Source: Bacteroidota bacterium (GTDB lineage: Bacteria; Bacteroidota; Bacteroidia; UKL13-3). From it: a DNA stretch of 64,000 nucleotides. Shown in pieces: positions 4,584-32,050 of the stretch. The stretch's first letter is position 1. Each line of letters opens with the position of its first letter. Made by a program: the position numbers and the translations under genes. The notes under the pieces are model-generated. The model made no database searches, had not been told where the DNA came from, and was given only the letters and a program-made list of their open reading frames with translations. The DNA lies in contig JAZKBU010000007.1 in NCBI GenBank assembly GCA_040388375.1, positions 248,823 through 312,822 of the forward strand, read 5' to 3'.

Positions 4584-4592
4584 AATAAGTGT

Positions 4593-6035: not shown

Positions 6036-6077
6036 ATTAAGTCTGTTCGAGCATAGTCGAGAATATTAATATTATAA

Positions 6078-6106
6078 AAGCTGCCTCAAAAGGGCGGCTT
6101 TTTTAT
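6078..6106 (+). terminator. Intrinsic terminator after the aldehyde dehydrogenase
   Basis: Stem AGCTGCC/GGCGGCT (one G-U pair), loop tcaaaag, then a TTTTTT tract. Confidence 0.6.
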
Positions 6107-6868: not shown

Positions 6869-7059
6869 ATTCAAAGACACAAGCACCTGAAAATATATAG
6901 TAAATATTTCTAATTAATTAAACAATTAGCCATTTAACAATGCGTATTAATTAAACAATTCAACAATAAAACCATCTGACAATATTTATTCGCTAAAACA
7001 ATTGAATGAAGATAAATGTTATTTGTATGTTTGCCGTTCTCAATTAAATAAAAAATAAA

Positions 7060-7632: not shown

Positions 7633-7672
7633 TCACTGGTAAAACTAGTAGGATATAAAAGATTGAAATAAA

Positions 7673-7704
7673 GAGGCTGTCCTTATGGAGCAGCCTTTTT
7701 TTTG
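7673..7704 (+). terminator. Intrinsic terminator after the nifU-like gene
   Basis: aggctgtcc-ttat-ggagcagcct hairpin followed by T8. Confidence 0.75.
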
Positions 7705-7782
7705 TATCGGTCAGTTTGCAATAGCACATTTGGTTCGCCCAGACTGGCCACTAATAACTAATATACCTGCTAACCGTACCTA

Positions 7783-8901: not shown

Positions 8902-8958
8902 TTGTTAATGGGGCTATAAAAAACAAAAGCGATAGTTCTGTTATCGCTTTTGTGGGTA

Positions 8959-10065: not shown

Positions 10066-10095
10066 GAACTTGTTTGCAACCTGTGTTTTGTATTG

Positions 10096-11301: not shown

Positions 11302-11390
11302 GTTTGTTAAATATTATTATGAATTAAAATTTTTATTGTACAAATATAATTTTTGGGTTGATTAAATGAAATGGGAATTGATGGATGGTT

Positions 11391-11424
11391 TATTTGTTAA
11401 CAGGTTGACTTGTTAACAGGTTGA
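11391..11424. promoter_or_regulatory. Tandem 17-bp direct repeat (TTGTTAACAGGTTGA x2) upstream of the DegT/FeADH/GNAT operon
   Basis: tttgttaacaggttgacttgttaacaggttgaaagg, about 90-125 nt upstream of the operon's first start codon. It contains GTTAAC palindromic cores. Confidence 0.4.
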
Positions 11425-11476
11425 AAGGGCCATTCAACTATTCAACATATAAACCAATCAACCCACCCTCAAAAAA

Positions 11477-11515
11477 AAAACCTGACCGAATTACTTCAAT
11501 CAGGGATTTTTTATA
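11477..11515 (-). terminator. Probable (bidirectional) terminator after gdhA
   Basis: Short stem CCCTGA/TCAGG(G) flanked by an A10 run on one side and a T6 run on the other. On the minus strand the hairpin is followed by T10. Confidence 0.5.
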
Positions 11516-11529
11516 GTTATTGGTTGTTA

Positions 11530-12807: not shown

Positions 12808-12932
12808 AGTTTTATTATTTATAGTTTAGTTAAAATAAAAGTGCTGGCAAACCTAAACATTTTTTATAAAAATGCTAATTATAATCGTTCAGTTATCCAC
12901 GCTTTATTGGGTATTATTTGTTTTTTTATATT

Positions 12933-13901
12933 TTATGAAATACGGGTCATTAAATCGTTGGCTGTTTGCCTTAAAACACTCAGCTTAGCCTCGCCTACAG
13001 TTAGCTTGTTTAAATGGTCAAAAGCAAGATCAAGGTATTGTTGTTTTTGGTTTTGCGCAAATTCCTCAATCATATATTTGGTATACAGGCTTAAAACAGT
13101 CTCTATTTTTTCTTCGGTATTATCGTTTTTAACAGCGGTTTCTATCAGCTTTTTATCGTCTTTGTTTACACAAGCCAGCAGCTCTATAAACAGCAATGTT
13201 TTTTTATTGGCTGCTATATCGCCTCCTATTTTTTTACCTACGGTAGTGCCTTCGCCAAAGCTGTCTAAAATATCGTCCTGTATTTGAAAAGCTATACCTA
13301 TGTTTTTACCAAACTCATACAGGTGTTGCGCTTCTTCTTTGCTTGCCCCTCCTATTAAAGCCCCTATTTGTAAGGAGCAGCCCAACAGTACGGCTGTTTT
13401 TAGTTTTATCATTTCAAGGTAATCGTTGTGCAGCACATTAGCCTGTGTTTCAAAATTCATATCTATCTGCTGCCCTTCGCATACCTCAATAGCGGTTTGG
13501 TTAAATACTTCGAGGAGTGATGATAAATCAGCAGAATCGGTTTTGCATAACAACTGGGTGGCTTTTATCATCATTAAATCGCCACTGAGTATGGCTATGG
13601 GCATATTCCATTTTTTATATACCGTTTCCTGCCCCCTGCGTAAAGGCGCATTGTCCATTATATCATCGTGTATAAGGGTAAAGTTATGGAATACTTCTAT
13701 GGCGTGGGCTGCATGCAGGGCTTTATCTACTTCGGTGCTGAATATATTGCAAGACATAAGGGTGAGTATGGGGCGCAAACGCTTGCCGCCCAATTGCATC
13801 ATGTATTGTATAGGTTGGTATAACTCTTTGGGATTACTACCGTAATTGGCCTCGTTGATATGGGCCATAAAAAGGTCGTACAGTTGCTGGTATGTTTTCA
13901 T
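12933..13901 (-). CDS. Polyprenyl diphosphate synthase (trans-isoprenyl synthase family)
   Basis: First Asp-rich motif (LIHDDIMD) and second Asp-rich motif (FQIQDDILD). Confidence 0.85.
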   Translation of the reverse strand: MKTYQQLYDLFMAHINEANYGSNPKELYQPIQYMMQLGGKRLRPILTLMSCNIFSTEVDKALHAAHAIEVFHNFTLIHDDIMDNAPLRRGQETVYKKWNMPIAILSGDLMMIKATQLLCKTDSADLSSLLEVFNQTAIEVCEGQQIDMNFETQANVLHNDYLEMIKLKTAVLLGCSLQIGALIGGASKEEAQHLYEFGKNIGIAFQIQDDILDSFGEGTTVGKKIGGDIAANKKTLLFIELLACVNKDDKKLIETAVKNDNTEEKIETVLSLYTKYMIEEFAQNQKQQYLDLAFDHLNKLTVGEAKLSVLRQTANDLMTRIS

Positions 13902-13941
13902 TAATTGCCTTGGTAAACGTAATTTTAAAAAGGGTTTGCTT

Positions 13942-15201
13942 TTAGTGTAATTGTTGTAATGCGGTTTCCAGTTTGCCTAACAATTCGGGTATATCGATTT
14001 CTTTTAAAGTGCCTACGGATATACGGTACCAATCGGTTCCGGCAGGGCAACCAAAAGCGGTAAAAGGCACTACGGCCAGTTGCGCGTGGTTTAACAGGAA
14101 GGCTGTAATCTGTTCTGTTTTTTCTATTTTAATACCTTCGGGTGTGGTTTTACCCATTAAAGCAAATTGGGCTGTTAGGTATATAGCGCCTTCGGGTGTA
14201 ATTAATTGTACGGGATATCCTTTTTGTTTCAAATCCTGAAAGCCTTTGTACAGGGCGTTAAAACGTATATCGAGCTTTTGTTTTAACTCGTTTAAAAAGC
14301 TGTTTAAAGCGGTATCGTTGTTTAAAAAGTTGGCTGTAGCCATTTGCTCGGCTTTGGGCGCCCAGGCTCCTATATGGCCTAGTATGGATTTCATGCGGCT
14401 TATTACATGGGCAGGGCCTAGGCTCCATCCTACTCTTACACCGGTAGCGGCTAAGCTTTTGCTAATGCCATCTACAAAAATGGTGTATGCTTTCATTTCG
14501 GGGCGCAGGCTTACGGGGTTGTAATGTTCTATGCCGTTGGTGCGCAACATCCAGTATATTTGATCGTATATAATGTACAGGGGCTTTTCGTCCGGGCCTC
14601 GTTTGTTGTTTTCGGCCAGTACCATATCGCATATGGCTTCGAGCTGGTCTTTTTTAAAGGTGGTGCCCGTTGGGTTGAGTGGCGAGCAAAGGGCTAACAA
14701 CACTGCTCCTTTTAAGTGCGGTGCCAGCTCCTCCGGTGTAGGCATAAAACCGTTTTCAGCACGGGTTTGTATTTCTACCTTTTGTGCATCGCTCAGATGG
14801 CAATAGTGGTTATTATTCCAGCTCGGTACAGGGTATATTACTTTGTCGTTTACATCTACTATGGTTTGGTATATGGCATGTATGAGCGGACGACCTCCAC
14901 CGGCTACCATTATTTCATCATCCGCAAAATCTATATGTTCGTATTTGCTGATGAATTGTTGTATGGCTTTTTTTAGCTCTAATACGCCATCGGCAGGCGG
15001 ATAATTGGTATGGTTATCCTGGTAAGCGTTAATGATTAGCTGCTTTAATTCATCGGGAATGCTGAACACATTGGGGTTAAAGTCCCCTATGGTCAGGTTG
15101 TATATTTGTTGTCCTTCGCGTATTTTCTGATTGATTTCATTGCCCAGTTTTATAATCTCTGAGCCTATTAAATTAGCTGCTTTGGTGGATACTTTTTGCA
15201 T
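13942..15201 (-). CDS. PLP-dependent aminotransferase, class I/II
   Basis: Fold-type I aminotransferase length and conserved segments, including a Lys-containing region (DGISKSLAATGVRVGW). Confidence 0.7.
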   Translation of the reverse strand: MQKVSTKAANLIGSEIIKLGNEINQKIREGQQIYNLTIGDFNPNVFSIPDELKQLIINAYQDNHTNYPPADGVLELKKAIQQFISKYEHIDFADDEIMVAGGGRPLIHAIYQTIVDVNDKVIYPVPSWNNNHYCHLSDAQKVEIQTRAENGFMPTPEELAPHLKGAVLLALCSPLNPTGTTFKKDQLEAICDMVLAENNKRGPDEKPLYIIYDQIYWMLRTNGIEHYNPVSLRPEMKAYTIFVDGISKSLAATGVRVGWSLGPAHVISRMKSILGHIGAWAPKAEQMATANFLNNDTALNSFLNELKQKLDIRFNALYKGFQDLKQKGYPVQLITPEGAIYLTAQFALMGKTTPEGIKIEKTEQITAFLLNHAQLAVVPFTAFGCPAGTDWYRISVGTLKEIDIPELLGKLETALQQLH

Positions 15202-15318
15202 GAACCGAAACTATTATTATTTTATAAAAGTAAATAATAAATATTTCAACAATGTTGGGAATACTTGCTACGCAGAACGAGCGGGCGCTTGCACCAGCAG
15301 TGAGGCCGCCAACAATCA

Positions 15319-16167
15319 TTAAGTTGTTTTGTAAATATACCACCCATTTCCTATTTCACGTACCATTATTACTCGATTTGCATTCATTTTTGGCAACTCT
15401 TTTTTATCTTTTACATATAGGTATCCAACGGTATTATCAATCATACCTCCAATTAAAAAGTTGATGCAGTTGCCTAATTCATAGCCACCTGTTGAAACAG
15501 AGGAAATAAACAATTTCCGATAATCTGTTTTTAAATTTTCAATCAGTTGTATACTTCTTTCTTCGTCTACTTTTTCTTTTTCGAGTTGTGTTAATGCTAA
15601 ATTTTTAAGTTGCTCAAAAGCTACTTGATTTGCTACAAAATGTTTGACGATGTTGTCGTCTAATTCAATTGTCAGTGTTGCATTGCCTAACTGAAAGTTA
15701 TAATCTTCCCATGACGTAAACATTGAAAAGCTATCTTTTTTCTTTTTTTTAGGCTTGGTAATAAAATCGTTTACTTGCTGTGTCGTCATATTTTCAAGTT
15801 CCGTTTTTATTTGTTGAATTATGCCTGTCATTGCCAATGCTCTAAAGGCATTCATTTTCCAAATTGCATCTTTTTCAAAGTACAAATAGGTATCAAGTCC
15901 TTTGCCTAATGAGTCTAAAATGGTCATTGCAACAACTGCTGTTTTCTGTGTCTGTTCAAGTACAATGAATTTTGTTGTAGCTCCTTTTTGTAAATCTTGC
16001 CCGTTGGGATGCCCTTTATATTCGCCAGTTATAAAATTGCCAATGGGTAATAAGCTGTCTTTGCTAAATATTTTTTTTGCTAAATCCAAAGGTTCATAAG
16101 CCTGCCCGTAAACGGTGCTTATTGTTTGCATTAGAAGTAGAAATATGATAGTTATTCGAGTAGTCAT
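15319..16167 (-). CDS. Hypothetical secreted protein (282 aa)
   Basis: N-terminal signal peptide (IIFLLLMQTISTVYGQA); no known motifs. Lies in the accessory island. Confidence 0.5.
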   Translation of the reverse strand: MTTRITIIFLLLMQTISTVYGQAYEPLDLAKKIFSKDSLLPIGNFITGEYKGHPNGQDLQKGATTKFIVLEQTQKTAVVAMTILDSLGKGLDTYLYFEKDAIWKMNAFRALAMTGIIQQIKTELENMTTQQVNDFITKPKKKKKDSFSMFTSWEDYNFQLGNATLTIELDDNIVKHFVANQVAFEQLKNLALTQLEKEKVDEERSIQLIENLKTDYRKLFISSVSTGGYELGNCINFLIGGMIDNTVGYLYVKDKKELPKMNANRVIMVREIGNGWYIYKTT

Positions 16168-16217
16168 AAAAAGAGTATTACTTTATGCTCGCATTTTTGC
16201 GAATAAGCATATTATTT

Positions 16218-16712
16218 TTAAGATAAGGTTATCTTTCCATTTTTAATGGTAAAGCTGTACAATTCAACAGTATCAACTGAAATGTTTTTAATTTTTCCGG
16301 CTGTCCAAGTTTTTAGTTCTGTAAATACAGCTACTATTTGGCTGTCCAGTTCTGTACTTTTTGTTTTATTGCTTATCTCACACTTTACAAGTTCGCCTTT
16401 ACAGTTTACAATTAAACTAACCATTCCCTTATCTTCATAATCTGGCTTATCTTTCAGAAAACTCACTTTAGCATTTAACTCCTGTATAATCTCTTCTTTG
16501 GTTTTAGTAGCTTGCGCTTTAACTTGTCCATTACCGGGAATTGGTAAAATAGCAATTACATTGGCATTGTCACAAACACCTTTTATGGGCTCTTTTACTT
16601 CCATTCTGGCAACCATATTATTTATTGAACTGCTTTTGGATGTTGCGCATGAGCTAATAATTCCGATGCTTATTAAGCCAATACAAATTGTTGTTAGTTT
16701 GTGTCTTTTCAT
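16218..16712 (-). CDS. Hypothetical lipoprotein
   Basis: Lipoprotein signal peptide with a lipobox Cys (IGIISSCATS). Confidence 0.5.
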   Translation of the reverse strand: MKRHKLTTICIGLISIGIISSCATSKSSSINNMVARMEVKEPIKGVCDNANVIAILPIPGNGQVKAQATKTKEEIIQELNAKVSFLKDKPDYEDKGMVSLIVNCKGELVKCEISNKTKSTELDSQIVAVFTELKTWTAGKIKNISVDTVELYSFTIKNGKITLS

Positions 16713-16813
16713 TTTTATCTACGGTTGCTGTTAACTTATTTATTAAGTTATATATTTCTCTTATTCGCAAAAGTATTTTATTATTCCACACCTCAAAATA
16801 CTGCGCAAAAAAA

Positions 16814-16837
16814 AAGGTTGGTGAGGACACCAACCTT
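16814..16837. repeat. REP-like perfect hairpin AAGGTTGGTG-AGGA-CACCAACCTT (family copy 1)
   Basis: 10-bp perfect arms downstream of the 16882 gene. The same sequence recurs at 22216-22239 and about 25340-25366; a degenerate copy sits at about 31968-31996. Confidence 0.75.
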
Positions 16838-16881
16838 GGACAAAACGCACTCGTTTCATCGCTAATCGCGAGGCCACTAAC

Positions 16882-17439
16882 TCAGCAATGGTTATTTTTG
16901 CTAAAGTCACGTTTAAAAAGTATCTTATTGTTTCGCGCAATATAGTCGCCTGATATAATCAAATAGGGATGATTAGGCGAATACCCTGCACTGCGGCTTC
17001 TTACCATTATTTTGTCGTTCACTTTCAGGCTTTTTAACTGCTCAAAATCCTTAGGCGTAAATTGCATCATGTATTCTTCGCCATTAATCCTGACGATAAG
17101 CCATTTTATTCCTGATGATTTCCCTTCGCGCTGAAAAGTAACGGAGGTTACCACGGCCTCCATATTGGTAAAATCTTTTATGTACTTCTTTATTTTATTA
17201 TGACTGGCATGCACCTTTTTACCTGCGGGAGAAACCTCCCATGCTTTGTAGTGTATACCGTCAGCAGAAGCTTCCCATTTTTTTCTTTCATCTGCCATGC
17301 GGGCTTCCCTGTCAGCAGTGGACAACGGCTTTGGAGATGGCTTGGTTTCATTTTTAATTTCACGATTGGCAAATACGAGTCCGCTCACCACAACCAGCAG
17401 TAAGATGAGCACATAGCTATTTTTTTTCATATGTTTCAT
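16882..17439 (-). CDS. Hypothetical secreted protein
   Basis: Signal peptide (VLILLLVVVSGLVFA); charged and hydrophilic. A REP-like hairpin follows at 16814-16837. Confidence 0.5.
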   Translation of the reverse strand: MKHMKKNSYVLILLLVVVSGLVFANREIKNETKPSPKPLSTADREARMADERKKWEASADGIHYKAWEVSPAGKKVHASHNKIKKYIKDFTNMEAVVTSVTFQREGKSSGIKWLIVRINGEEYMMQFTPKDFEQLKSLKVNDKIMVRSRSAGYSPNHPYLIISGDYIARNNKILFKRDFSKNNHC

Positions 17440-17694
17440 ATCCTTTCCAATTGATGCTACGAATCTAGTTTAATATTTTCCGGACTGAGCTGTAAATCTT
17501 GTTAATGAATTGTAAAAAGTATTTACTGAAACAATCCGCACTCGCCAGTGTTCCGCTAGTTAGTGCGGGTGCATTTATAGAAGGTTTGATATCGATATTG
17601 GTAACCGGCAGATATAATAAGAATATTCCCGCTGTTTTCATGAAAATTATCTACAATCAAATCCCCATCAATTGTTAAGCCGAGCCTATAGCGT

Positions 17695-18087
17695 TCAATA
17701 TGAACTTTGCTGTATAAAATGGGTACAATGGGTGGGACCTCCATTCTTTTCAAGATAAAATTCATAATAACCTTTTTTTGAAAAGCGTCCTGCATATGTT
17801 TTTGTGAATTCCTTACCTTTATACTTGAATGCAATTGTTAGTTGCTTGTTGCTATTAAAAAAAACATTTACACTGTCAATATTCCCTTTAGTTTCATGGA
17901 GTATTGTTAATAATTCATGGTGATCCTTGCCAAATTCTTTCTCCGGGCTGATTTTATAAGGAACGTTGGCAATTGTTGCTGAAAAAAGAGGGGTCAAGGG
18001 CTGCACTTTCGATTTTCTGACTTGTAAGCCCGATCCACAAGAACAGAAAAGCAAAACAGATAGCGTAATGGTTATTATTCTTGTCAA
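17695..18087 (-). CDS. Hypothetical lipoprotein
   Basis: Signal peptide followed by a CSCGSG lipobox-like motif. Confidence 0.45.
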   Translation of the reverse strand: MTRIITITLSVLLFCSCGSGLQVRKSKVQPLTPLFSATIANVPYKISPEKEFGKDHHELLTILHETKGNIDSVNVFFNSNKQLTIAFKYKGKEFTKTYAGRFSKKGYYEFYLEKNGGPTHCTHFIQQSSY

Positions 18088-18157
18088 GTTTTATGTTGTT
18101 TAAAATGCCCTATAACGTTTTACGGCTAAGTAGCCGTTAAATGATTGTTGTATTGCT

Positions 18158-18183
18158 AAGACGTTGTATGCAAAGTCTCTACG
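18158..18183. repeat. Palindromic element AAGACGTTG(T/C)ATGCAA(A/C)GTCTCTACG, two copies in the window
   Basis: Second copy at 37224-37249, whose core GACGTTGCATGCAACGTC is a perfect 18-bp palindrome. Both copies are intergenic. Confidence 0.6.
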
Positions 18184-18203
18184 TTTGTTGTTGCTTAGCA
18201 GTG

Positions 18204-18722
18204 CTACTGCCAGTTTTCTTTTTTTACGATGTATCTTCTATCCATACAGTTGTCGTCTGCGTTAAAAAATTCTTTCTGCATGGTAAAAAACTTGTTCAGT
18301 ATTTTAACTGATTTCACATTGTCAACGCATACATCAGCCGTTACCAATTCTGATTTCATTTGAACAAAACAAAAATCAATGAGTCCTTTGGCTATTTCGG
18401 TTCCATAACCGTTACCCCAGTATCTTTCTATAACCCGGTAAGCAATTTCATCTTCATTGGCATCGTTTTTTAAAACGCCACCAATGCCAATCAGGTTGTT
18501 ACTGCCTTTTTTGCAAAGGCTCCATATTTTTGTGTCGGATGTTTTTTCCAGTAAGATGAGGTTATTTAATTTGGCAAAACTCCCGGCTTTGTCGAAAGCT
18601 TTTTGAGGGATGGGGTTGGTTATATTGGGATTGCCCATTAGCTCAAAAAATGCGGCCTCGTCATTTTGTTCGAGTCTTCTTGCATAAAGTCTTTCCGTTT
18701 CAAATACCATAGTTAAAAGCAA
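18204..18722 (-). CDS. GNAT family N-acetyltransferase (RimJ/RimL-like)
   Basis: GNAT motifs (YRVIERYWGNGYGTEIAKGLIDFCF). Confidence 0.75.
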   Translation of the reverse strand: MLLTMVFETERLYARRLEQNDEAAFFELMGNPNITNPIPQKAFDKAGSFAKLNNLILLEKTSDTKIWSLCKKGSNNLIGIGGVLKNDANEDEIAYRVIERYWGNGYGTEIAKGLIDFCFVQMKSELVTADVCVDNVKSVKILNKFFTMQKEFFNADDNCMDRRYIVKKENWQ

Positions 18723-18769
18723 TCTAATACTATTTCACCAATCATCAAATGGGTTTTTATTTGCTTATT

Positions 18770-18798
18770 GGAACGAGCGGACGCTCGCACTAGCGGGG
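18770..18798. repeat. Palindrome-containing repeat GGAACGAGCGGACGCTCGCACTAGCGGGG (family copy; direct-repeat partner at 22277-22303)
   Basis: Near-identical copies at 22277-22303 (same orientation), and 27898-27919, 30265-30290 and 32375-32406 (inverted orientation). Confidence 0.7.
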
Positions 18799-18825
18799 TA
18801 CGAAGTATTGAACTATAAAAAAATG

Positions 18826-21800
18826 TTAAATAAAAAGCCTATAATCATAAGTCTTTCCTTCAAATCTAGAAAGCAATTTTCCAATTCGAGCAATTTGATT
18901 TGAAGAATCAATTGTCGATGGTAACTTAGAATATAAGTCTAATGAATTCCAATTCATTTTTGTTAGTCCTAATATCTCTGTTGCAATAGTTTGTATATTA
19001 GACTCGCCATAATGTTTGGTTATTTTGACTGGCGCAGGGATACTTCTACCGCCCAAATAAAACTTATAGTTTTGTTGTCTTACAGAAGGAACAATGCCAT
19101 GAGTCCATAATAATGCTGTATGCTTGTTTGTGACAATACACGTACCTCTCGAAATTGGAAACTTGTCAATCTGAAGTTCATTTTGATAAACACTCATAGC
19201 TAGGAAACGTGCATCTACTTCATAATTGATTTCAACTAAATCTATTTTCTTAATCCCAGCTTTATTTAGACTAGCTTTAATACCATTTATTTCATCTTCC
19301 GTAAATTTTGTTCTTTTGTGTATTACTACTCTTTCTGGAAGTTTATCAAGTGACTGATAAAACAATTCACGAATGGATACTCCAAATTGAAATGCATCTT
19401 TATAGGATAAATATGGGTTAAGTTGCTTGTCAAGAAAGTAGTTATCAATTTTTGAAAGTCTATACTTTAATCCTTGCCCGTTTGAATCGTAAATATGACT
19501 ACAGCCAATTACAATTTCAGATTTATCTTGAATTCGTGAAACACTATACCCGATTCCCGCATAAGCTGTATTTTTCTCTTGATTATTCAAAATCCAAGGT
19601 GTTCTAAGCGACTTAACATAAAAAGATAATGATAACCACCAATAGATTTGACACTTTAGGGTGTCATTAAGTGTTTCTTCCCTAATAAGTTGTGTCGAAA
19701 TACCTCGAGAAGCTGAAAATGCTTTAATATAGTCGTGTAAATCAAAACTTTCCCCTTGATTGATATAATTTTCAAATAATTGCCATTCATTAGGAATAAA
19801 AATTACGATAGTACTCTGACTTTGTGTATTCGCAATCTGTTCAATTTTGCTTGTGATTAGACGAACTAGTTTTATTGCATTTTCGTGGCTTTCCAAACCA
19901 TTTTCTGGATTGAATTCAATGCCAATCCATTTTTCGCTACTATCAAATAATGGAATATTAATTGGAATATTAAAAATGGAAGAGAAGCCAGGGTAATCAA
20001 TTAAATAATCAGGATTAATATTTTCTGTTGAGTGCTTTACTTGTAATTTTGATAGGAAATCATAAAATCTGTTCGAGTATTCTTTCCCACAAATTACTGA
20101 AAGATTTATTTCATTTGAATGAATTACTCCATTTAGATTTACATCAAATGGCCTGTTATTCACCAAACCTCTCATTGGATGATAGTCCTTAAACTCTACA
20201 TCAGTAGCCACATTTCTAAAAACTAATTGGGGCTCTAAAAATTGTACCCCTTTAAATTGAGTTTGTCTCTTATCATAATTATTTGGTGTATATGACCTAA
20301 AGTTAGGGTCAAGCACATTTATTTCTCCAAATGCTGTATTCGATGAAATTTGAAATTCAAAACCTGTTCCAGATGAAATTGGGTATTCAAATTTGATTCG
20401 TTGATTACTAAATAATGTGGCATTCCAAAAGTCTAAAACTTCATCATATTTATTGTTGTATAATTTTTCTAGTTGATTTTTACTTACTTGTTGTTTCTGT
20501 GTTTTTGTTATTTCCTCAGAAGATGAAAGATAAACGGTTGGAGTAAAGGTTAAATAAGCAAAGCCCGCGTTTTTATCAAAATAGAATGACAAGTAGATAG
20601 ATTTATGAACACCAATATTACCAAATTGCCTTTCATTTTTCTTGATCCAAATCTTATCTTTAAGATTTGTTTCAATTGTACTGTTAGAACTGAAATGTTT
20701 CAGGATTGCTTGAAGCATTAAGGATTTAAATGCGGAAACTCTCTCAATATCAAATTTTGAAATTGGCTCTCTTTTTATTTCGGATTTTAGATGCTTTTTA
20801 AAGGCATTGCTAATTTCAGAAAGAGTACCTAAAGCAAATACCTTTTTCTTGAAAGGTACAGCACAAATATTTGTATCTTTCGTAACTGCTTTTAAAAACG
20901 CCCAAGGCTTTTCTTCTTTATAATCAATTTCAAATTGGAATATCTCTTTAGGAAATACAATTGGATGAAGATTACTTTTGATGTATTTGTCTGTTCTTGA
21001 AAAACTCAAACTAAATTCAGTTTTGAAATATTCTTCATCATCAGAAACTTCCAAGGCTTCTTGAATTTTTTTAGAAATGGTTTGATTGTCTTCAAATGCT
21101 GATTTTGATAAATGAATCAACGTTTTATCAAATCCATCTGTTGCTACGTAATAAGCCTCTCTTCCCGACTGTCTAATTTGCAAAATAAGTTCGAGCACTT
21201 CTTTATTTATTTGGTCTCCATAGCCACACCAATATAATCTTCCTGCACCATTTTTGCTAAATGCAATTTTAATTGCTTGCATTAATGAATTATCTCTCCC
21301 ACTATAACCAATTACAATTAGATTTTTATCAATATGATAATTTGCTAAATGCTCTTTGAACGTTTCATTTTGATTATCTAATTCTTTTTCCGTGTTTTTT
21401 AATGTGGAAAATTTATAGTCACCGTGTAGTGCAATTGATAATAGTTCTTTACTACTTTGATTGCGGTAAATTTTATCAGTATTGTCAAGCGTAATCTCTA
21501 TTGGTGTTAATTTATTTTGATGTGCTGAACGTACCGTTAAGCCATCGAAGTTCGTAGTCCAAACTGATTTGACTATTCCATATTCCGCTAAAAGACAGAG
21601 TAATTTATAGCCAATATAAGGCTCTTTATTCTCTATTAGACTTAAAAAATATTTTCGTCTATCTTCAGCAATAGGATAAGCCTTTTCTGCATAAAAAGAA
21701 TATTCTTCGGGTGAGTCTAGTAATGGATACTCGCCTTGATTATCTAACCAAGTCTGTATACTTTTTCTAACAGCTTCTTCTTTATAGTTTTTATAAAAGT

Positions 21801-21984
21801 CAGCTGAATTAATATTTTTAGATAGATATATATCTTTTTTCCATTCCCAAATACAATCATAGGCTGTTTGTATCCCAGAACTTATTGAAGTTCCTGCTCC
21901 CAATAAGAAGGAATGAGGGACGTCTATATTCCTTTTAAAAGATCTTAAAAAAGCATCGTATTCAAGATGTATATTTTCTACCAT
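18826..21984 (-). CDS. Single-chain SIR2-APAZ-short prokaryotic Argonaute fusion (short-pAgo immune effector; catalytically inactive PIWI)
   Basis: N-terminal SIR2-type NADase motifs (FLLGAGTSISSGI; TTNFDGL; LHGDYK). Middle APAZ-sized region (~300 aa). MID-like 5'-end-binding Y..K...Q...K pattern (HDYIKAFSASRGISTQLI...YVKSL). PIWI first strand GIGYSV, with the catalytic Asp replaced by Gly. Ago-type C-terminal segment (GGRSIPAPVKITKHY). Confidence 0.8.
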   Translation of the reverse strand: MVENIHLEYDAFLRSFKRNIDVPHSFLLGAGTSISSGIQTAYDCIWEWKKDIYLSKNINSADFYKNYKEEAVRKSIQTWLDNQGEYPLLDSPEEYSFYAEKAYPIAEDRRKYFLSLIENKEPYIGYKLLCLLAEYGIVKSVWTTNFDGLTVRSAHQNKLTPIEITLDNTDKIYRNQSSKELLSIALHGDYKFSTLKNTEKELDNQNETFKEHLANYHIDKNLIVIGYSGRDNSLMQAIKIAFSKNGAGRLYWCGYGDQINKEVLELILQIRQSGREAYYVATDGFDKTLIHLSKSAFEDNQTISKKIQEALEVSDDEEYFKTEFSLSFSRTDKYIKSNLHPIVFPKEIFQFEIDYKEEKPWAFLKAVTKDTNICAVPFKKKVFALGTLSEISNAFKKHLKSEIKREPISKFDIERVSAFKSLMLQAILKHFSSNSTIETNLKDKIWIKKNERQFGNIGVHKSIYLSFYFDKNAGFAYLTFTPTVYLSSSEEITKTQKQQVSKNQLEKLYNNKYDEVLDFWNATLFSNQRIKFEYPISSGTGFEFQISSNTAFGEINVLDPNFRSYTPNNYDKRQTQFKGVQFLEPQLVFRNVATDVEFKDYHPMRGLVNNRPFDVNLNGVIHSNEINLSVICGKEYSNRFYDFLSKLQVKHSTENINPDYLIDYPGFSSIFNIPINIPLFDSSEKWIGIEFNPENGLESHENAIKLVRLITSKIEQIANTQSQSTIVIFIPNEWQLFENYINQGESFDLHDYIKAFSASRGISTQLIREETLNDTLKCQIYWWLSLSFYVKSLRTPWILNNQEKNTAYAGIGYSVSRIQDKSEIVIGCSHIYDSNGQGLKYRLSKIDNYFLDKQLNPYLSYKDAFQFGVSIRELFYQSLDKLPERVVIHKRTKFTEDEINGIKASLNKAGIKKIDLVEINYEVDARFLAMSVYQNELQIDKFPISRGTCIVTNKHTALLWTHGIVPSVRQQNYKFYLGGRSIPAPVKITKHYGESNIQTIATEILGLTKMNWNSLDLYSKLPSTIDSSNQIARIGKLLSRFEGKTYDYRLFI

Positions 21985-22215
21985 TATTATGTTGTTTTAT
22001 TTATTAAATTAGGTTATCTGCTATTTTATGTTGCAAAATAGCCTATTTCATAACCCCTGTTTACAAAACTTATTCCAATATTATAAGCCACAGAAAAATT
22101 TAATTATTTTTTTATGTATAGGGGTTTTGCTTTTTGAGTAGCAGTTTTACTCCCCGCTTTTTTAAAAGAATATATAAATGAAGGGTTGGTACATATACTG
22201 GCAAGTACGAGTGGA

Positions 22216-22271
22216 AAGGTTGGTGAGGACACCAACCTTGGACAAACTTGTTGGTGAAGAACACCAACAAG
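22216..22271. repeat. Tandem pair of REP-like hairpins (AAGGTTGGTG-AGGA-CACCAACCTT, then CTTGTTGGTG-AAGAA-CACCAACAAG) upstream of the pAgo gene
   Basis: Two adjacent perfect 10-bp-arm palindromes. The second is a sequence variant of the first. Confidence 0.75.
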
Positions 22272-22276
22272 GGCAG

Positions 22277-22303
22277 GAAACGAGCGGATGCTCGCACCAG
22301 CGG
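22277..22303. repeat. Second same-orientation copy of the GAACGAGCGGAYGCTCGCACYAGCGG repeat, 5' of the pAgo gene
   Basis: gaaacgagcggatgctcgcaccagcgg. Together with 18770-18798 it brackets a 3.5-kb segment containing only the SIR2-APAZ-pAgo ORF. Confidence 0.7.
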
Positions 22304-22317
22304 AGTGTTTGTGCAAT

Positions 22318-22353
22318 AAAAAATCCCTTCTATTTTGTAGAAGGGATTTTTTG
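22318..22353 (-). terminator. Bidirectional intrinsic terminator downstream of the 22361..23254 gene
   Basis: aatcccttcta-ttttg-tagaagggatt 11-bp stem with T-tracts on both sides. Confidence 0.7.
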
Positions 22354-22360
22354 TTTGTGG

Positions 22361-23254
22361 TTAGGCTTTGATAAGGCTTACCTGGAGCTGGGTTATTTTA
22401 CCCTGCTCAACAGTGGCTTGAACGCTTTGGGTTATATAGCCGCCTGCTTCTATACGCAGGGTGTACTGGCCTGCGCGCATTTTGGTTATTTCGCATATAC
22501 CTTGCTGGTCGGCTTCATCGGTTTTGGTGCTACCCTCTAAAATGGCTTTGGCAATGGTAAGTGGGTTATTGCTTGCTGCATCTGTTACTTTTATGCTTAC
22601 GCCTGTTTTGCGCACGGCTGCTTCGTTTATGACTTTGGTGGCTATAAGGATGCCGGCAAAAGCGGGGACATTCATTGCATTGACTACTAAATCGGTAATG
22701 ATGGCCAAGCTGGCATCGGCTGCTTTGAAGAGGCTATTGGTTTCGGCTACCATGTTTTTTTTGTTTTTTACAGCGCTTTGTGTAGTACCTAAACTGGTTT
22801 GGAATGCATTTACTAACTGGCGTGCGGCTGTTACATCGGTAGGCTTGATGTTGAGGTCAACCAAATTGCGTGCATTGGTTTCGATGGGTGTTAATACTGC
22901 ATTGGCTTTGGCATAACAGTCGGCATCGGGTAAGCGGGTAAAATCGGTTTTGGTTACATTGAAAAGGGTCATGAGTGGTATGTCTTTTTCATCCTTTGCC
23001 CATACGTAAGCGGCTCTTGCTAGTTTACAAAGGGTTTCGGTCATGGTTAATTTTAGCTGGGTATTGTTATTGGTAATACCTTTTGTGCTTACGCTGAGGC
23101 TGGAATTCAGCTCATCTATGCGTGCTAAGATTTGGTTGAAATGCTGCACCTCGGTGTCTAACCTTGCTAATAAGTTAACGGAGGCTGTGTTGGTTTTTAA
23201 AACTTGCTGTACGGCCTGGTACATGTTAAGTTTTGCAATTGAATTCTTATTCAT
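22361..23254 (-). CDS. Hypothetical protein with a C-terminal carboxypeptidase-regulatory-like beta-sandwich segment
   Basis: C-terminal RAGQYTLRIEAGGYITQSVQATVEQGKIT resembles a CarbopepD_reg-like domain. The rest is helical and uncharacterised. A 780-bp repeat-rich region lies upstream. Confidence 0.45.
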   Translation of the reverse strand: MNKNSIAKLNMYQAVQQVLKTNTASVNLLARLDTEVQHFNQILARIDELNSSLSVSTKGITNNNTQLKLTMTETLCKLARAAYVWAKDEKDIPLMTLFNVTKTDFTRLPDADCYAKANAVLTPIETNARNLVDLNIKPTDVTAARQLVNAFQTSLGTTQSAVKNKKNMVAETNSLFKAADASLAIITDLVVNAMNVPAFAGILIATKVINEAAVRKTGVSIKVTDAASNNPLTIAKAILEGSTKTDEADQQGICEITKMRAGQYTLRIEAGGYITQSVQATVEQGKITQLQVSLIKA

Positions 23255-23424
23255 ACGATTTTTAATTTATTGGTTGTTATAACGTTTTTGATAGCTGTTT
23301 TATTATTTTAAGCTGCTATAAAATGTTTGTTATATGGCTTGTTCAGGGGTATGAATTTGATATGTGGTTTTATTTTATTTTGATTGGCATTGGAAGGAGT
23401 TTGTTTGGGATGTAGAAGCTTATG

Positions 23425-23795
23425 TTTATGCTTTGATGGCATTTGTTTGATTCCCGATATGGTTTGTTTGACTGTTGGTATTGTTTGTTTACTCTTTGAT
23501 TGCCTTTGTTTAAGGTTTGACTGCATTTGTGTCACTTTTGATAGCGTATGGGTTAACTCTTGATTTTGTTTGTTTGACCTTTGATGGCGTATGTTTAACC
23601 TTTGGTTGACTTTGCATCAGGTGCGGCTGAATTTGTGTCACTTTCAATGGCTTATGTTTGACTTTAAAAGTGATTTGTTTGACTCTTGATGGCTTATGTT
23701 TAACCTTTGATGGCATTTGTTTAAGGCTCGACTGAATTTGTGTCATATTGAGCGGCTTATGTTTGACCCTTGATGTGATTTGTTTGGGATTGGGT
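23425..23795. repeat. Degenerate 21-bp tandem repeat array (about 17 units) with a 105-bp (5-unit) higher-order periodicity
   Basis: Units such as ctttgatggcatttgtttaag, ctttgatggcgtatgtttaac and tcttgatggcttatgtttaac. Every fifth unit is the variant ...gactg(c/a)atttgtgtca(c/t). The units are contiguous with no spacers. Confidence 0.8.
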
Positions 23796-23810
23796 GGGGT
23801 TTGCACCGCA

Positions 23811-23880
23811 TTTCATACGGTGTATCTACCGTATTTTATACGGTGTATCTACCGTATTTCATACGGTGTTATTGAAATTA
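23811..23880. promoter_or_regulatory. Two and a half tandem copies of a 23-bp unit carrying the palindrome TACGGT-N6-ACCGTA (operator-like)
   Basis: tttcatacggtgtatctaccgta / ttttatacggtgtatctaccgta / tttcatacggtgtt. 6-bp inverted arms separated by 6 bp, which fits a dimeric HTH binding site. Confidence 0.5.
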
Positions 23881-24623: not shown

Positions 24624-24677
24624 AGCGCTTAAAAACCAAGCCTGTCAGTGTGCTCCGTATTAAATAAATTAACTTCC

Positions 24678-24731
24678 CTAACAAAAGTATTGGTTTATTT
24701 GATTCAGCAAAATGTTGTCTAAATAAAAAAA
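24678..24731 (-). promoter_or_regulatory. Bacteroidetes-type promoter, copy A of a repeated extended promoter element
   Basis: The minus-strand reading gives TTTTGCTGAATCAAATAAACCAATACTTTTGTTAG, i.e. a -33 TTTG, an 18-nt spacer, and a -7 TACTTTTG (TAnnTTTG). It lies 45-100 nt upstream of the 24623 start. Confidence 0.6.
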
Positions 24732-24778
24732 ATTAGCGATGACACTAACTCTGGACAATACCATAATACATACGTTTA

Positions 24779-25216: not shown

Positions 25217-25287
25217 TGAAATTGTTATTTTATATCTATAATAAACTTAAACCAATCACAACTATTATAATCTGGTTCATAATCTTC

Positions 25288-25341
25288 ACTAACAAAAGTA
25301 TTGGTTTATTTGATACAGCAAAATGTTGCCTAAATAAAAAA
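25288..25341 (-). promoter_or_regulatory. Promoter element copy B (about 55 bp, nearly identical to copy A)
   Basis: Same TTTG...TACTTTTG architecture, upstream of the 24779..25216 gene. Confidence 0.6.
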
Positions 25342-25467
25342 GGTTGGTGAGGGAACACCAACCTTGAACAAATTGTATTTAGCCAGGGGCTCATGTATAT
25401 ACTCACTCGCAAGATACCAACATGCAGCAGAAACACCTGTCCATTTGCTTCGCTTGCCCTGCCCTTG

Positions 25468-26403
25468 TTACTCTATTATTGTTATCCCTGTTAAATTTGC
25501 CTGGTTGTTTTTTAAAAAGGCATAGGTAATTTTATCTACTTTACAGTCAATAAACTGTACGCGTTTAAATTTTCCATTATACTTAAAAAAGGTATTTAAA
25601 ATGGTTGCATTCTGAAATGTAACATTATAAAATGTACAGTTTTCAAATTGGCAGTTCTCTAAAGTGCCTTCAAAAACAATATCGCTAATACCTGCATTTT
25701 TAAATGATGTAAATTTCCACACGGCATTTTTCACCACATTACTTTCAAAATTTACTCCGGTAAACTCAGCCCCCGAAAAATTCGTTTCAGAAAAATCGCA
25801 TTTGCCAATATTGCTTTTTAAAAATGTAGCATCTATCAATAAACAATTATTAAACTGGTTATTTAACAAATTAGATGATTGAATTTTGCTGTTTCTAATG
25901 TCTGAAGAGGAGAAATCGCACATTTCAATATTATTGCTTCCAAGAATAAGCCCCGACAAATCAGCGTTTGCAAACTTGCAGTTCTTCATATTGGAAGAGC
26001 TGAATTTTTCCTTTAAGTTCTTTAAGCCTGAAAAGTCAGCGTCAACCCAATTCCCTTTGGACATATCCCAACTCCAATCAAATTTGTTCTTTGCTTTAGC
26101 CTCCGGAATTTCTACTGTTTGGTTGTCAAACTGCTCGTTGGTTGTTGTTGAAATTTCATCAGCCTTAAAACTGTCAGAGAAATAGTTAAGATCAACTCCA
26201 AAAATTTCAGCCAGTCGGTTTAATGTGGTAATGTCGGGCATGGATTCACCACGTTCCCATTTTCCAACTGCTTGTGAACTGATTGATACTTGCTGGGCAA
26301 GTTCTGCTTGTGAAAGATTCGTTTTCTTTCTTGCTGTGGCAATTTTATTGCCAATTGTTTTTGAATTTAGCATCTTATGTTTTTTAAAATTTTGATGCTG
26401 CAA
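25468..26403 (-). CDS. XRE-family HTH domain fused to a pentapeptide-repeat domain
   Basis: HTH segment (NLSQAELAQQVSISSQAVGKWERGESMPDITTLNRLAEIF) followed by many A(D/N)(L/F)xx pentapeptide repeats (ADFSG, ADLSG, CDFSS, ATFLK, CDFSE, AEFTG...). Confidence 0.75.
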   Translation of the reverse strand: MQHQNFKKHKMLNSKTIGNKIATARKKTNLSQAELAQQVSISSQAVGKWERGESMPDITTLNRLAEIFGVDLNYFSDSFKADEISTTTNEQFDNQTVEIPEAKAKNKFDWSWDMSKGNWVDADFSGLKNLKEKFSSSNMKNCKFANADLSGLILGSNNIEMCDFSSSDIRNSKIQSSNLLNNQFNNCLLIDATFLKSNIGKCDFSETNFSGAEFTGVNFESNVVKNAVWKFTSFKNAGISDIVFEGTLENCQFENCTFYNVTFQNATILNTFFKYNGKFKRVQFIDCKVDKITYAFLKNNQANLTGITIIE

Positions 26404-26520: not shown

Positions 26521-26556
26521 TTAACAAAAGTATTGGATTATTTGACACTGCAAAAC
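26521..26556 (-). promoter_or_regulatory. Promoter element copy C
   Basis: ttaacaaaagtattggattatttgacactgcaaaa, upstream of the HTH-pentapeptide gene. Confidence 0.5.
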
Positions 26557-27875: not shown

Positions 27876-28089
27876 TGTCCTATTGGCCTCCTTACTGGTT
27901 TGAGCGTCCGCTCGTTCCTTTATATATAACCAAGGCAATGTACCGAATGTTGAATAGATTGCCCCAACTCTTTACCCCCTTTAAGTGTAAATTATGTATT
28001 TTTTTTCACAAGTTATGTAAGGCTTTGTTGTACTTCCATAAGTACGTTTGTGTTTGCAAAGTAACAATTTACGATTAAAAACAAACACT

Positions 28090-31955: not shown

Positions 31956-32050
31956 TCATGCTTACTCACCTAAGGTTGGTGAGGACATCAGCCTTGGGCA
32001 AACATTCAGGAACATACCCTGCGTTTGTTACTATCGACCAAACTTCAGTT

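What the first reader, a model, noticed from the sequence alone, without database searches (positions are those of the whole stretch)
18826..21984. Single-chain SIR2-APAZ-short Argonaute fusion: a pAgo/NADase-type immune effector in an accessory island
The 1052-aa ORF has four recognisable parts. (i) An N-terminal SIR2-like NADase domain with motifs FLLGAGTSISSGI, TTNFDGL and LHGDYK. (ii) An APAZ-sized linker of about 300 aa. (iii) A MID-like domain with the 5'-phosphate-binding Y-x-x-K...Q...K pattern (HDYIKAF...STQLI...YVKSL). (iv) A PIWI domain whose first catalytic strand reads GIGYSV, so the catalytic Asp is replaced by Gly. That makes it an inactive-slicer 'short' pAgo rather than a nuclease. 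This architecture matches the fused S1A branch of SIR2-APAZ/short-pAgo systems, which trigger NAD+ depletion on guide-directed target recognition. Against that known family, three things about this locus stand out. The system is a single polypeptide rather than the more common two-gene operon. It sits alone between repeats in an island of hypothetical secreted proteins. It has no detectable neighbouring partner gene. Its precise subtype, guide and target preference and effector output are not predictable from sequence, and it may be a divergent, uncharacterised member.
Basis: partly seen in the sequence, partly recalled or inferred. Interest (0 to 1): 0.85.

Follow-up and report, generated by a model that had tools for sequence, protein, structure and literature searches.

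The report
Known fused SIR2-Argonaute defence gene
This gene encodes a single-chain SIR2-APAZ-short Argonaute ("SPARSA-A", clade S1A) immune protein that is 78% identical to the homologous gene of the Joostella marina strain whose fusion protein was published as NAD-lowering, so it is an ordinary member of a known bacterial defence family, sitting in a strain-variable defence slot.

Summary
It is a fused SIR2-APAZ-MID-PIWI short prokaryotic Argonaute of clade S1A (SPARSA-A). A PADLOC pAgo model matches it end to end (1552 bits). Its two halves match the two chains of the solved GsSir2/Ago complex (E 1e-30 and 5e-52). The Sir2 residues N145, H187 and D231 and the MID 5'-phosphate residues H750, K754, Q765 and K791 are invariant in the family. 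The DEDX slicer tetrad is absent. What does not hold is the claim that the locus is unusual. The single chain and the lack of a partner gene are what define S1A. The protein is 78% identical to the S1A gene of Joostella marina DSM 19592, the strain whose fusion lowers NAD in E. coli. Hundreds of Bacteroidota homologs of 1052 aa share 70-91% identity with it. One added result: in a sister genome the same 3.3-kb slot holds a ThsB-type TIR protein plus an ORC/CDC6-like ATPase instead, so the gene sits in a defence hotspot. The flanking short repeats belong to the host genome, not to the gene. Interest is low.

The parts
18826..21984 (-). Complete SIR2-APAZ-MID-PIWI (SPARSA-A / clade S1A) gene, 1052 codons plus stop
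   Evidence: ORF. PADLOC PDLC02384 scores 1552.6 bits end to end. The listed homologs are nearly all 1052 aa.
21055..21984 (-). SIR2 NADase domain, about residues 1-310. Catalytic N145 (21550-21552) and H187 (21424-21426), NAD-binding D231 (21292-21294).
   Evidence: Pfam SIR2_2 matches 140-263 at E 3.3e-9. GsSir2 residues 21-311 align to 25-309 at E 1e-30. N145, H187-G188-D189 and GYSGRD231 are invariant in 18 sequences down to 43% identity. The roles of GsSir2 N142/H186 and D230 come from PMC10781750 and bioRxiv 10.1101/2021.12.14.472599.
20275..20997 (-). APAZ domain, about residues 330-570 (approximate boundaries)
   Evidence: PADLOC SIR2-APAZ-type models ('Aga_SIR2-PNTD1-PNTD2') cover this region: PDLC02401 matches 45-553 and PDLC02420 matches 7-1052. 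GsSir2 domain limits are Sir2 1-309, linker, APAZ 331-587. Foldseek aligns the model to the whole GsSir2-APAZ chain 8jl0_A at E 8e-21, but the model is of low confidence.
19585..20247 (-). MID domain, about residues 580-800, with 5'-phosphate pocket H750, K754, Q765 and K791
   Evidence: Stand-alone pAgo models start at residue 579-584. H750/K754/Q765 align without gaps to GsAgo H166/K170/Q181, which contact the guide 5'-phosphate. All four residues are invariant.
18829..19584 (-). PIWI domain, about residues 801-1052, catalytically dead. The TtAgo tetrad positions are occupied by G812 (or V815), no conserved acid, R891 and N1029.
   Evidence: hhalign against TtAgo maps D546 to R891 (invariant) and D660 to N1029 (17 of 18). 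The beta1 strand G810-I811-G812-Y813-S814-V815 has no acidic residue in any register. The C-terminus ...YDYRLFI ends in register with the GsAgo C-terminus.
18805..22062 (.). Strain-variable cassette (3,258 bp) containing only the pAgo ORF. A sister MAG has different defence cargo here.
   Evidence: blastn of L065 (GCA_040384145.1) against the window: flanks are 92.6% (22063-22720) and 98.0% (1536-18804) identical, with no similarity between them apart from a 46-nt repeat copy.
18772..18799 (+). GC-rich palindromic 28-nt repeat abutting the downstream cassette junction (in the conserved flank)
   Evidence: Family D8. There are 4 copies in the window against 0 expected.
22279..22306 (+). Second copy of the same repeat, upstream of the gene in the conserved flank, beside hairpin repeat 22216-22239
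   Evidence: The repeat is not found in the 60 genome-collection pAgo loci or in the closest-relative contig then fetched (L063).

Best explanation
The gene encodes a stand-alone, single-chain SPARSA-A (clade S1A) abortive-infection system. The following mechanism is inferred from characterised relatives, not shown here. The MID-PIWI half, together with the APAZ domain, loads a short 5'-phosphorylated RNA guide into the H750/K754/Q765/K791 pocket. Pairing of the guide with complementary single-stranded DNA from an invading plasmid or phage cannot lead to cleavage, because the slicer tetrad is missing. It triggers oligomerisation instead (a tetramer in GsSPARSA). Oligomerisation rearranges the N-terminal Sir2 domains so that H187 and N145 hydrolyse NAD+, which depletes NAD+ and kills or arrests the infected cell. 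What is shown here is the architecture, the conservation of all these residues, the loss of DEDX, the absence of any conserved partner gene, and the location in a strain-variable slot that holds a TIR-based defence module in a sister genome.
For: Family identity: PADLOC pAgo model end to end at 1552.6 bits, plus split SIR2-APAZ and pAgo models covering 45-553 and 579-1052. GsSir2 matches at E 1e-30 and GsAgo at E 5.5e-52. Foldseek's best hits are GsSPARSA chains (low-confidence model). The protein is 78.3% identical over 1052 aa to the S1A gene of J. marina DSM 19592, the strain from which the NAD-lowering JomSIR2-APAZ-pAgo was cloned (PMC9097488). Fused PgSir2-Ago gives about 400-500-fold phage protection. 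Functional residues are invariant across 18 sequences down to 43% identity: N145, H187, D231, H750, K754, Q765 and K791. Tetrad loss: R891 and N1029 stand at TtAgo D546 and D660, and there is no acid in beta1. Stand-alone status: no neighbour family occurs in more than 7 of 60 loci, and none of the window's neighbours recurs. Relatives at 89-91% identity sit in three other contexts, one beside a DRT reverse-transcriptase defence gene. Hotspot: a sister MAG has a ThsB-type TIR protein (359 bits, full length) plus an ORC/CDC6-like ATPase in the same slot. Horizontal origin: gene GC is 30.8% against 36.9% for the rest of the window, and gene GC is below flank GC in 38 of 42 loci. The mechanism comes from GsSPARSA structures (PMC10781750; PMC11452484).
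Against: Nothing contradicts family membership. The limits are these. No experiment exists on this protein. The mechanistic detail comes from the two-chain S1B system GsSir2/Ago, whose Ago chain shows about 24% identity and whose Sir2-APAZ chain about 20% in the Foldseek alignments of a low-confidence model. No single PDB chain matched both halves of the protein. Three of the four GsAgo residues reported to read the 5'-AU of the guide are not conserved: N184 aligns to R768, R190 to D774 and N195 to Q779, while D164 is kept as D748. Guide preference may therefore differ. Fused PgSir2-Ago did not block plasmid transformation in the published assay. The AlphaFold model was poor (pLDDT 54.7), so domain boundaries are approximate. 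No promoter was identified.
Confidence: 0.88

Rival explanations
1. It is a SPARSA-A protein, but its main role is not host antiviral defence. It would serve mobile elements instead, for example as an addiction or exclusion module that removes competing plasmids or conjugative elements.
For: In 5 of 60 loci the gene lies beside Bacteroidota conjugative-transposon-like tra genes, and in 7 beside integrases (functions read from the sequences, no profile search). Its GC is lower than its flanks in 38 of 42 loci. Published SPARSA and SPARTA systems respond mainly to high-copy plasmids.
Against: In this window there are no integrase or tra genes within the 15-28 kb region. The slot is chromosomal, between conserved genes, and alternates with a TIR defence module. 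The molecular mechanism would be the same, so this rival is a difference of emphasis only.
Confidence: 0.08
2. It is a conventional NAD-dependent sirtuin protein deacetylase carrying an unrelated C-terminal extension, as some database names suggest ('NAD-dependent SIR2 family protein deacetylase').
For: Source names of some homologs say so. There is a Pfam SIR2_2 hit.
Against: The NCBIfam deacetylase equivalog scores 14.4 bits against a cutoff of 395. The C-terminal 470 residues are a MID-PIWI Argonaute at E 5.5e-52. The Sir2 domain is closest to GsSir2, a demonstrated NADase.
Confidence: 0.01
3. It is a catalytically active, nuclease-type Argonaute that cleaves its targets.
For: It has a PIWI fold with RNase H-like secondary structure.
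Against: R891 and N1029 occupy two tetrad positions and are invariant or nearly so. No acidic residue lies in the first catalytic strand, and no conserved acid lies at the glutamate-finger position. There are no N or PAZ domains, since APAZ stands in their place.
Confidence: 0.01
4. The gene is a silent or decaying horizontally acquired remnant with no current function in this host.
For: GC is low relative to the host. No promoter was identified. The sequence comes from a metagenome-assembled genome, so no expression data exist.
Against: The reading frame is intact and full length, with no indels relative to homologs. Every functional residue is conserved, as is the C-terminus. An identical copy exists in an independent assembly of the same sample.
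Confidence: 0.05

Closest known systems
JomSIR2-APAZ-pAgo (Joostella marina DSM 19592; clade S1A, SPARSA-A; Koopal et al. 2022, PMC9097488)
   Same: Same single-chain architecture and the same length (1052 aa). The homologous gene in that strain's genome is 78.3% identical over the full length. Both come from Bacteroidota. The published protein lowers total NAD when expressed in E. coli.
   Different: It differs at about 22% of residues and comes from a different host (an uncultured Bacteroidota MAG). Nothing found here suggests a functional difference.
PgSir2-Ago (Paraburkholderia graminis; fused Sir2-Ago; Zaremba et al., bioRxiv 10.1101/2021.12.14.472599)
   Same: It is a single-gene fusion of Sir2-APAZ and a short pAgo. 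It gives about 400-500-fold protection against phages lambda-vir and SECphi27.
   Different: It comes from a proteobacterial host. I could not obtain its sequence, so its identity to this protein was not measured. It showed no plasmid interference in that study.
GsSir2/Ago = GsSPARSA (Geobacter sulfurreducens; clade S1B; PDB 8in8, 8jkz, 8y80 and others)
   Same: Same domain set and order. The Sir2 catalytic N/H and NAD-binding D, and the MID H-K-Q 5'-phosphate contacts, align residue for residue. The slicer is inactive. It is the source of the mechanistic model: RNA guide, ssDNA target, tetramerisation, NAD+ hydrolysis.
   Different: It has two polypeptides from an operon rather than one chain. 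It is only distantly related in sequence (E 1e-30 and 5e-52). Three of the four residues that read the 5'-AU of the guide differ (N184/R190/N195 align to R768/D774/Q779).
SPARTA (clade S2A; TIR-APAZ + short pAgo)
   Same: Same logic: a short inactive pAgo senses guide-target pairing and switches on an NADase through oligomerisation. The PIWI-MID halves are homologous (E 1e-14 to 1e-18).
   Different: The effector is a TIR domain rather than SIR2, and the system has two chains.
Thoeris ThsA (SIR2 NADase effector)
   Same: The SIR2-family NADase domain has the same Asn/His dyad (PMC10781750).
   Different: It is activated by a small-molecule signal from ThsB TIR proteins, not by an Argonaute, and it has no APAZ, MID or PIWI domains. 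A ThsB-type protein occupies this same slot in the sister genome.

Membership tests
[quoted passage not shown] | SIR2, APAZ, MID and PIWI lie in one polypeptide | tested here: met
   One uninterrupted 1052-aa ORF. The 1030-position fused PADLOC model matches end to end. Both GsSPARSA chains align to consecutive halves.
[quoted passage not shown] | N-terminal SIR2-family domain with the catalytic Asn/His and the NAD-binding Asp | tested here: met
   Pfam SIR2_2 above its cutoff. N145, H187 and D231 align to GsSir2 N142, H186 and D230 and are invariant.
[quoted passage not shown] | An APAZ domain lies between SIR2 and MID, with no canonical N or PAZ domains | tested here: met
   PADLOC SIR2-APAZ-type models cover residues 45-553. 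Foldseek aligns the model along the whole GsSir2-APAZ chain (low-confidence model). The APAZ part did not align to GsSir2 by phmmer alone, so its boundaries are approximate.
[quoted passage not shown] | MID domain with a 5'-phosphate binding pocket | tested here: met
   H750, K754, Q765 and K791 are invariant. H/K/Q align to GsAgo H166/K170/Q181.
[quoted passage not shown] | PIWI domain lacks the DEDX catalytic tetrad | tested here: met
   The profile alignment to TtAgo maps D546 to R891 and D660 to N1029. There is no acid in the beta1 strand 810-815 and no conserved acid at the E512 region. The register of the first two positions is of low confidence, but no register restores an acid.
[quoted passage not shown] | Phylogenetic placement within S1A rather than S1B, S2A or S2B | tested here: met
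   No tree was built. The protein is 78.3% identical over the full length to the S1A-type gene of J. marina DSM 19592, the strain of the published S1A representative. That compares with E 5e-52 to S1B GsAgo and E 1e-14 to 1e-18 to SPARTA (S2A) pAgos.
[quoted passage not shown] | No additional conserved partner gene (stand-alone system) | tested here: met
   Neighbour clustering over 60 loci: the commonest family is in 7 loci (integrase), and none of the window's neighbours recurs.
[quoted passage not shown] | Guide- and target-dependent NAD+ hydrolysis | not testable with these tools
   This needs biochemistry. It is inferred from JomSIR2-APAZ-pAgo (NAD drop in vivo) and GsSPARSA.
[quoted passage not shown] | Protection of the population against phage or plasmid by abortive infection | not testable with these tools
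   This needs challenge assays. Indirect support: the slot is occupied by a ThsB-TIR module in a sister genome, and a DRT gene lies next to a 90% identical homolog.
Long-A catalytically active pAgo | Intact DEDX tetrad plus N and PAZ domains | tested here: not met
   (tetrad). (architecture).
Sirtuin protein deacetylase (CobB/NpdA type) | Match to the deacetylase equivalog model above its cutoff | tested here: not met
   NCBIfam NF010736 scores 14.4 bits against a cutoff of 395.

The most novel reading that the evidence does not exclude
The most novel reading not excluded has two parts. First, the highly conserved Bacteroidota S1A fusion may differ mechanistically from the two-chain GsSPARSA paradigm. 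It could select guides with a different 5' end, because three of the four GsAgo residues that read 5'-AU are replaced (R768, D774, Q779). Covalent linkage could also change its oligomerisation and activation. Second, its exchange with a ThsB-TIR module at a fixed chromosomal slot, bounded by a 28-nt palindromic repeat, may reflect a repeat-mediated cassette-swapping mechanism for defence genes in Bacteroidota.
Probability: 0.15. Interest if true: 0.35.

Novelty: already known. Interest (0 to 1): 0.1.

Why it matters
It matters little beyond correct annotation. The gene should be labelled a SPARSA-A (S1A) short-Argonaute NADase defence system rather than 'SIR2 family protein' or 'deacetylase'. 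Two modest points of value follow. (1) No single-chain S1A structure was found in the PDB copy searched, and I found no guide/target study of a fused member in the papers searched. Any member of this very conserved 1052-aa Bacteroidota group, this one included, would be a reasonable subject. (2) The pair of sister genomes gives a clean natural example of a defence hotspot, in which a pAgo-SIR2 module and a TIR module replace each other between identical flanks.

Tried and rejected
- The Pfam Piwi, PAZ and MID models gave no hit on the query even at E<=1. I rejected this as evidence of absence because PADLOC and the PDB sequence searches are decisive.
- NCBIfam gave only a sub-threshold deacetylase hit.
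- The accepted job, on A2 (all rows at least 71% identical), gave a poor model (pLDDT 54.7, pTM 0.31). The Foldseek result is therefore used only as weak support, with no structural residue mapping.
- Full-length hhalign against TtAgo covered only the last two tetrad positions. A permissive PIWI-only run covered all four, but with a low-confidence register at the first two.
- I tested whether the flanking repeats are ends of a pAgo-carrying mobile cassette and rejected the idea. The repeats are absent from the 60 genome-collection pAgo loci and from L063, and they lie in the conserved flanks.
- I tested for a conserved partner gene and found none. The upstream genes of the two closest relatives are unrelated to each other.
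- No other defence system was found among the eight nearest ORFs tested between 15.3 and 27.9 kb; only HTH-domain matches appeared.
- No tRNA genes and no Rfam families are in the window.
- The sigma-70 promoter and terminator scan was at chance level and does not suit a Bacteroidota host.
- Look-ups of three upstream window proteins, meant to extend the sister-genome comparison, found nothing on record.
- The supplementary tables of Koopal et al. are not held.
Full report
**Observation.** All the quoted peptide motifs are present at residues 26-38, 143-149, 186-191, 750-756, 763-767, 789-793 and 810-815.

**Identity.** A PADLOC pAgo model of 1030 positions matches residues 4-1052 end to end at 1552.6 bits. 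Split models for the SIR2-APAZ part ('Aga_SIR2-PNTD1-PNTD2') and for stand-alone short pAgos cover residues 45-553 and 579-1052. Pfam SIR2_2 is significant (E 3.3e-9, 37.4 bits against a cutoff of 24.5). Against the PDB, residues 25-309 match GsSir2 (E 1e-30) and residues 584-1051 match GsAgo (E 5.5e-52). These are the two chains of the Geobacter sulfurreducens SPARSA complex. SPARDA, SPARHA and SPARTA pAgos follow, and Aquifex Argonaute is a distant hit. Pfam's Piwi model did not hit the query at all, and NCBIfam offered only a far sub-threshold deacetylase match. General-purpose libraries therefore under-call this family.

**Functional residues.** I aligned 18 family members down to 43% identity (A1) and read the column compositions.
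- *Sir2.* N145, H187-G188-D189 and G226-Y-S-G-R-D231 are invariant. They align to GsSir2 N142 and H186, whose alanine mutants lose NADase activity (PMC10781750), and to D230, whose D230A mutant loses NAD binding and defence (bioRxiv 10.1101/2021.12.14.472599).
- *MID.* H750, K754, Q765 and K791 are invariant. The first three align without gaps to GsAgo H166, K170 (printed 'K70' in the paper) and Q181, which contact the guide 5'-phosphate.
- *PIWI.* I fetched TtAgo from Thermus plasmid pTT27. Its tetrad D478/E512/D546/D660 is from my own knowledge of the literature, and those residues are D, E, D and D in the fetched sequence. Profile alignment puts invariant R891 opposite D546 and N1029 (17 of 18) opposite D660. 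The first catalytic strand is G810-I811-G812-Y813-S814-V815. By motif, G812 stands for D478; the permissive profile alignment instead places V815 there. In no register is there an acidic residue, and no conserved acid lies at the glutamate-finger region.
- *Guide reading.* Three of the four GsAgo residues reported to read the 5'-AU of the guide are not conserved: N184, R190 and N195 align to R768, D774 and Q779, while D164 is kept as D748. Guide 5' preference therefore cannot simply be transferred.

**Structure.** The AlphaFold2 run on the only admissible alignment (24 rows, all at least 71% identical) gave a poor model (mean pLDDT 54.7, pTM 0.31). Foldseek still ranked the GsSPARSA Sir2-APAZ chain first (8jl0_A, E 8e-21, alignment spanning the whole chain), followed by GsAgo chains. 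TM-scores are low, so I use this only as weak corroboration. The domain limits given (SIR2 about 1-310, APAZ about 330-570, MID about 580-800, PIWI about 801-1052) come from the HMM and PDB alignments and the published GsSir2 limits. They are approximate.

**Comparison with what is known.** Koopal et al. 2022 (PMC9097488) define clade S1A as 'SIR2-APAZ-pAgo fusions (SPARSA-A)'. They state that the APAZ-domain protein is the only protein specifically associated with short pAgos. They also show that JomSIR2-APAZ-pAgo, cloned from Joostella marina DSM 19592, lowers total NAD in E. coli. The genome of that same strain is now titled Galbibacter orientalis DSM 19592, with scaffold names beginning 'Jooma', and DSM 19592 is the J. 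marina type strain. It carries a 1052-aa homolog that is 78.3% identical to the window protein over the full length (L039). Zaremba et al. showed about 400-500-fold phage protection by the fused PgSir2-Ago. GsSPARSA structures give the activation mechanism: 5'-AU RNA guide, ssDNA target, tetramerisation, then alignment of H186 for NAD+ hydrolysis. The family is also very common. I found 1752 clusters with E<=1e-10, and the best 120 are 71-91% identical and almost all 1052 aa long. Sixty loci turned up in species-representative genomes across Flavobacteriia, Sphingobacteriia, Bacteroidia, Cytophagia and Balneolales. The protein is not divergent.

**Context.**
- *Neighbours in the window.* The window's neighbours are core metabolic genes up to 15201: polyprenyl synthetase, glutamate dehydrogenase and aminotransferases. 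After them come small hypothetical genes, all on the minus strand. PADLOC finds no other defence system among the eight nearest ORFs tested between 15.3 and 27.9 kb; only an HTH-domain match appeared.
- *Neighbours across loci.* Clustering neighbours over 60 loci shows no conserved partner. The maximum is 7 of 60 loci (a family I read as an integrase). Five further families I read as conjugative-transposon tra genes each occur in 5 loci. None of the window's neighbours recurs.
- *Closest relatives.* Relatives at 89-91% identity lie in three further, mutually unrelated contexts. One is directly downstream of a DRT (UG5-nitrilase) defence reverse transcriptase.
- *Base composition.* The gene's GC is 30.8% against 36.9% for the rest of the window. 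Gene GC is lower than flank GC in 38 of 42 loci, which fits repeated horizontal transfer of an AT-rich module.

**Source and hotspot.** Housekeeping proteins of the window are exact matches to an NCBI MAG labelled 'Bacteroidota bacterium' (MES23819xx, 495-kb contig). The pAgo itself was found exactly only on a 5.4-kb assembly contig of run SRR26324621. A sister MAG (GCA_040384145.1) shares an identical glutamate dehydrogenase. Its syntenic region (L065) is 98.0% identical to window 1536-18804 and 92.6% identical to window 22063-22720. Between those blocks the two sequences share nothing apart from one 46-nt copy of the short repeat. The window has 3,258 bp there (18805-22062) containing only the pAgo ORF. 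The sister has 3,344 bp encoding five ORFs. One is a full-length ThsB-type TIR protein (PADLOC 359 bits over 1-230 against model positions 1-233 of 234). The others are a 46-aa ORF, an ORC/CDC6-like AAA ATPase, a DUF4359 protein and a 90-aa ORF. The accessory unit is thus a single-gene cassette in a defence hotspot. This independently supports an immune role by location.

**Repeats.** GAACGAGCGGACGCTCGCAC-type copies lie at 15276, 18772, 22279 and, inverted, 27898, against 0 expected by chance. The hairpin AAGGTTGGTGAGGACACCAACCTT lies at 16814, 22216 and 31972. Both lie in the flanks conserved between the two strains. They are absent from the 60 genome-collection pAgo loci and from L063, and they occur at the ends of short-read contigs from the same sample. 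They are therefore dispersed host repeats rather than ends of a pAgo element. The downstream junction of the variable cassette does abut one copy exactly, so a role in recombination at the hotspot is possible but untested.

**Verdict.** This is a typical, intact member of the already described SPARSA-A/S1A family, and standard defence-annotation HMMs detect it. Its mechanism is inferred from close and distant characterised relatives. What remains open is open for the whole S1A clade rather than for this locus: guide preference, oligomeric activation of the single chain, and a structure.

Noticed in passing
window 18805-22062 versus L065 657-4000 (GCA_040384145.1, JAWVHD010000004.1): This is a defence-hotspot swap between sister MAGs. 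Between identical flanks (GNAT gene on one side, CarboxypepD_reg-like gene on the other), the pAgo cassette is replaced by five ORFs: a ThsB-type TIR protein, a 46-aa ORF, an ORC/CDC6-like AAA ATPase, a DUF4359 protein and a 90-aa ORF. ThsB paired with an ORC/CDC6-like ATPase is not the canonical Thoeris pairing (no ThsA was detected) and may be a variant system.
   Followed up: partly
window 15276-15303, 18772-18799, 22279-22306 (+) and 27885-27917 (-); L065 3658-3703: A GC-rich palindromic 28-33-nt repeat (core GAACGAGCGGACGCTCGCAC) occurs 4 times within 15-28 kb and nowhere else in the 64 kb. Copies sit between gene groups, and one abuts the junction of the variable cassette. Another copy lies inside the sister genome's cargo. 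It could be a REP-like element or a recombination site. Its function is unknown.
   Followed up: partly
window 16814-16837, 22216-22239, 31972-31995: This is a perfect 24-nt hairpin repeat, AAGGTTGGTGAGGACACCAACCTT. On the minus strand the 16814 copy is followed by a T-run, like an intrinsic terminator. Short-read contigs of the same sample (L062, L064) end at this repeat, so it is probably multi-copy in the genome.
   Followed up: partly
window 24668-24739, 25279-25350, 26522-26555, 16765-16815: Intergenic modules of 34-72 nt, 88-97% identical between copies (the fourth copy about 70%), lie upstream of several small minus-strand genes. Read on the minus strand they contain TTTG ... TAnnTTTG, which resembles the Bacteroidota promoter consensus. 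The similarity is higher than a promoter alone would need.
   Followed up: no
window 23380-23870: A repetitive intergenic stretch has 21-nt and 105-nt periodic repeats (23483-23786) and 2.8 copies of a 23-nt hairpin unit (23805-23869). GC skew (+0.26) and AT skew (-0.36) are strong. The only ORFs are low-complexity (KQ/KHKP-rich) ones on the minus strand. There is no Rfam match.
   Followed up: no
L004, L026, L034, L043 and others (upstream of the pAgo); L041, L047: In at least 5 of 60 loci the S1A gene lies next to genes that look like Bacteroidota conjugative-transposon tra genes (TraG-like and others), and in up to 7 next to integrases or recombinases. The functions were read from the sequences and not checked by profile search. 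This suggests ICE/CTn carriage as one route of spread.
   Followed up: partly
L067 146-2287: A 90% identical pAgo homolog (P0004) sits about 170 nt downstream of a DRT-type defence reverse transcriptase (RT_UG5-nitrilase, E 1.8e-153; matches only model positions 311-897 of 907), with a 53-aa ORF between them. This is a small defence island in another genome.
   Followed up: partly
L002 (Saccharibacteria MAG) and L028 (Thermodesulfobacteriota MAG): Bacteroidota-type S1A genes (81% and 65% identical) occur on contigs binned to non-Bacteroidota MAGs. This is either binning contamination (L002 is a 4.5-kb contig) or cross-phylum transfer.
   Followed up: no
window 18826-21984 (protein level): Pfam PF02171 (Piwi) does not detect this protein even at E<=1, although it is recorded for a few homologs (P0006, P0087, P0111). 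Public names for the family are mostly 'SIR2 family protein' or 'deacetylase', so the family is systematically under-annotated.
   Followed up: yes
window 25468-26403: An HTH (Xre-type) protein fused to pentapeptide repeats lies 3.5 kb upstream. Its HTH part matches PADLOC RmrA, CapH and control-protein models through the HTH only. Nothing indicates that it regulates the pAgo.
   Followed up: no
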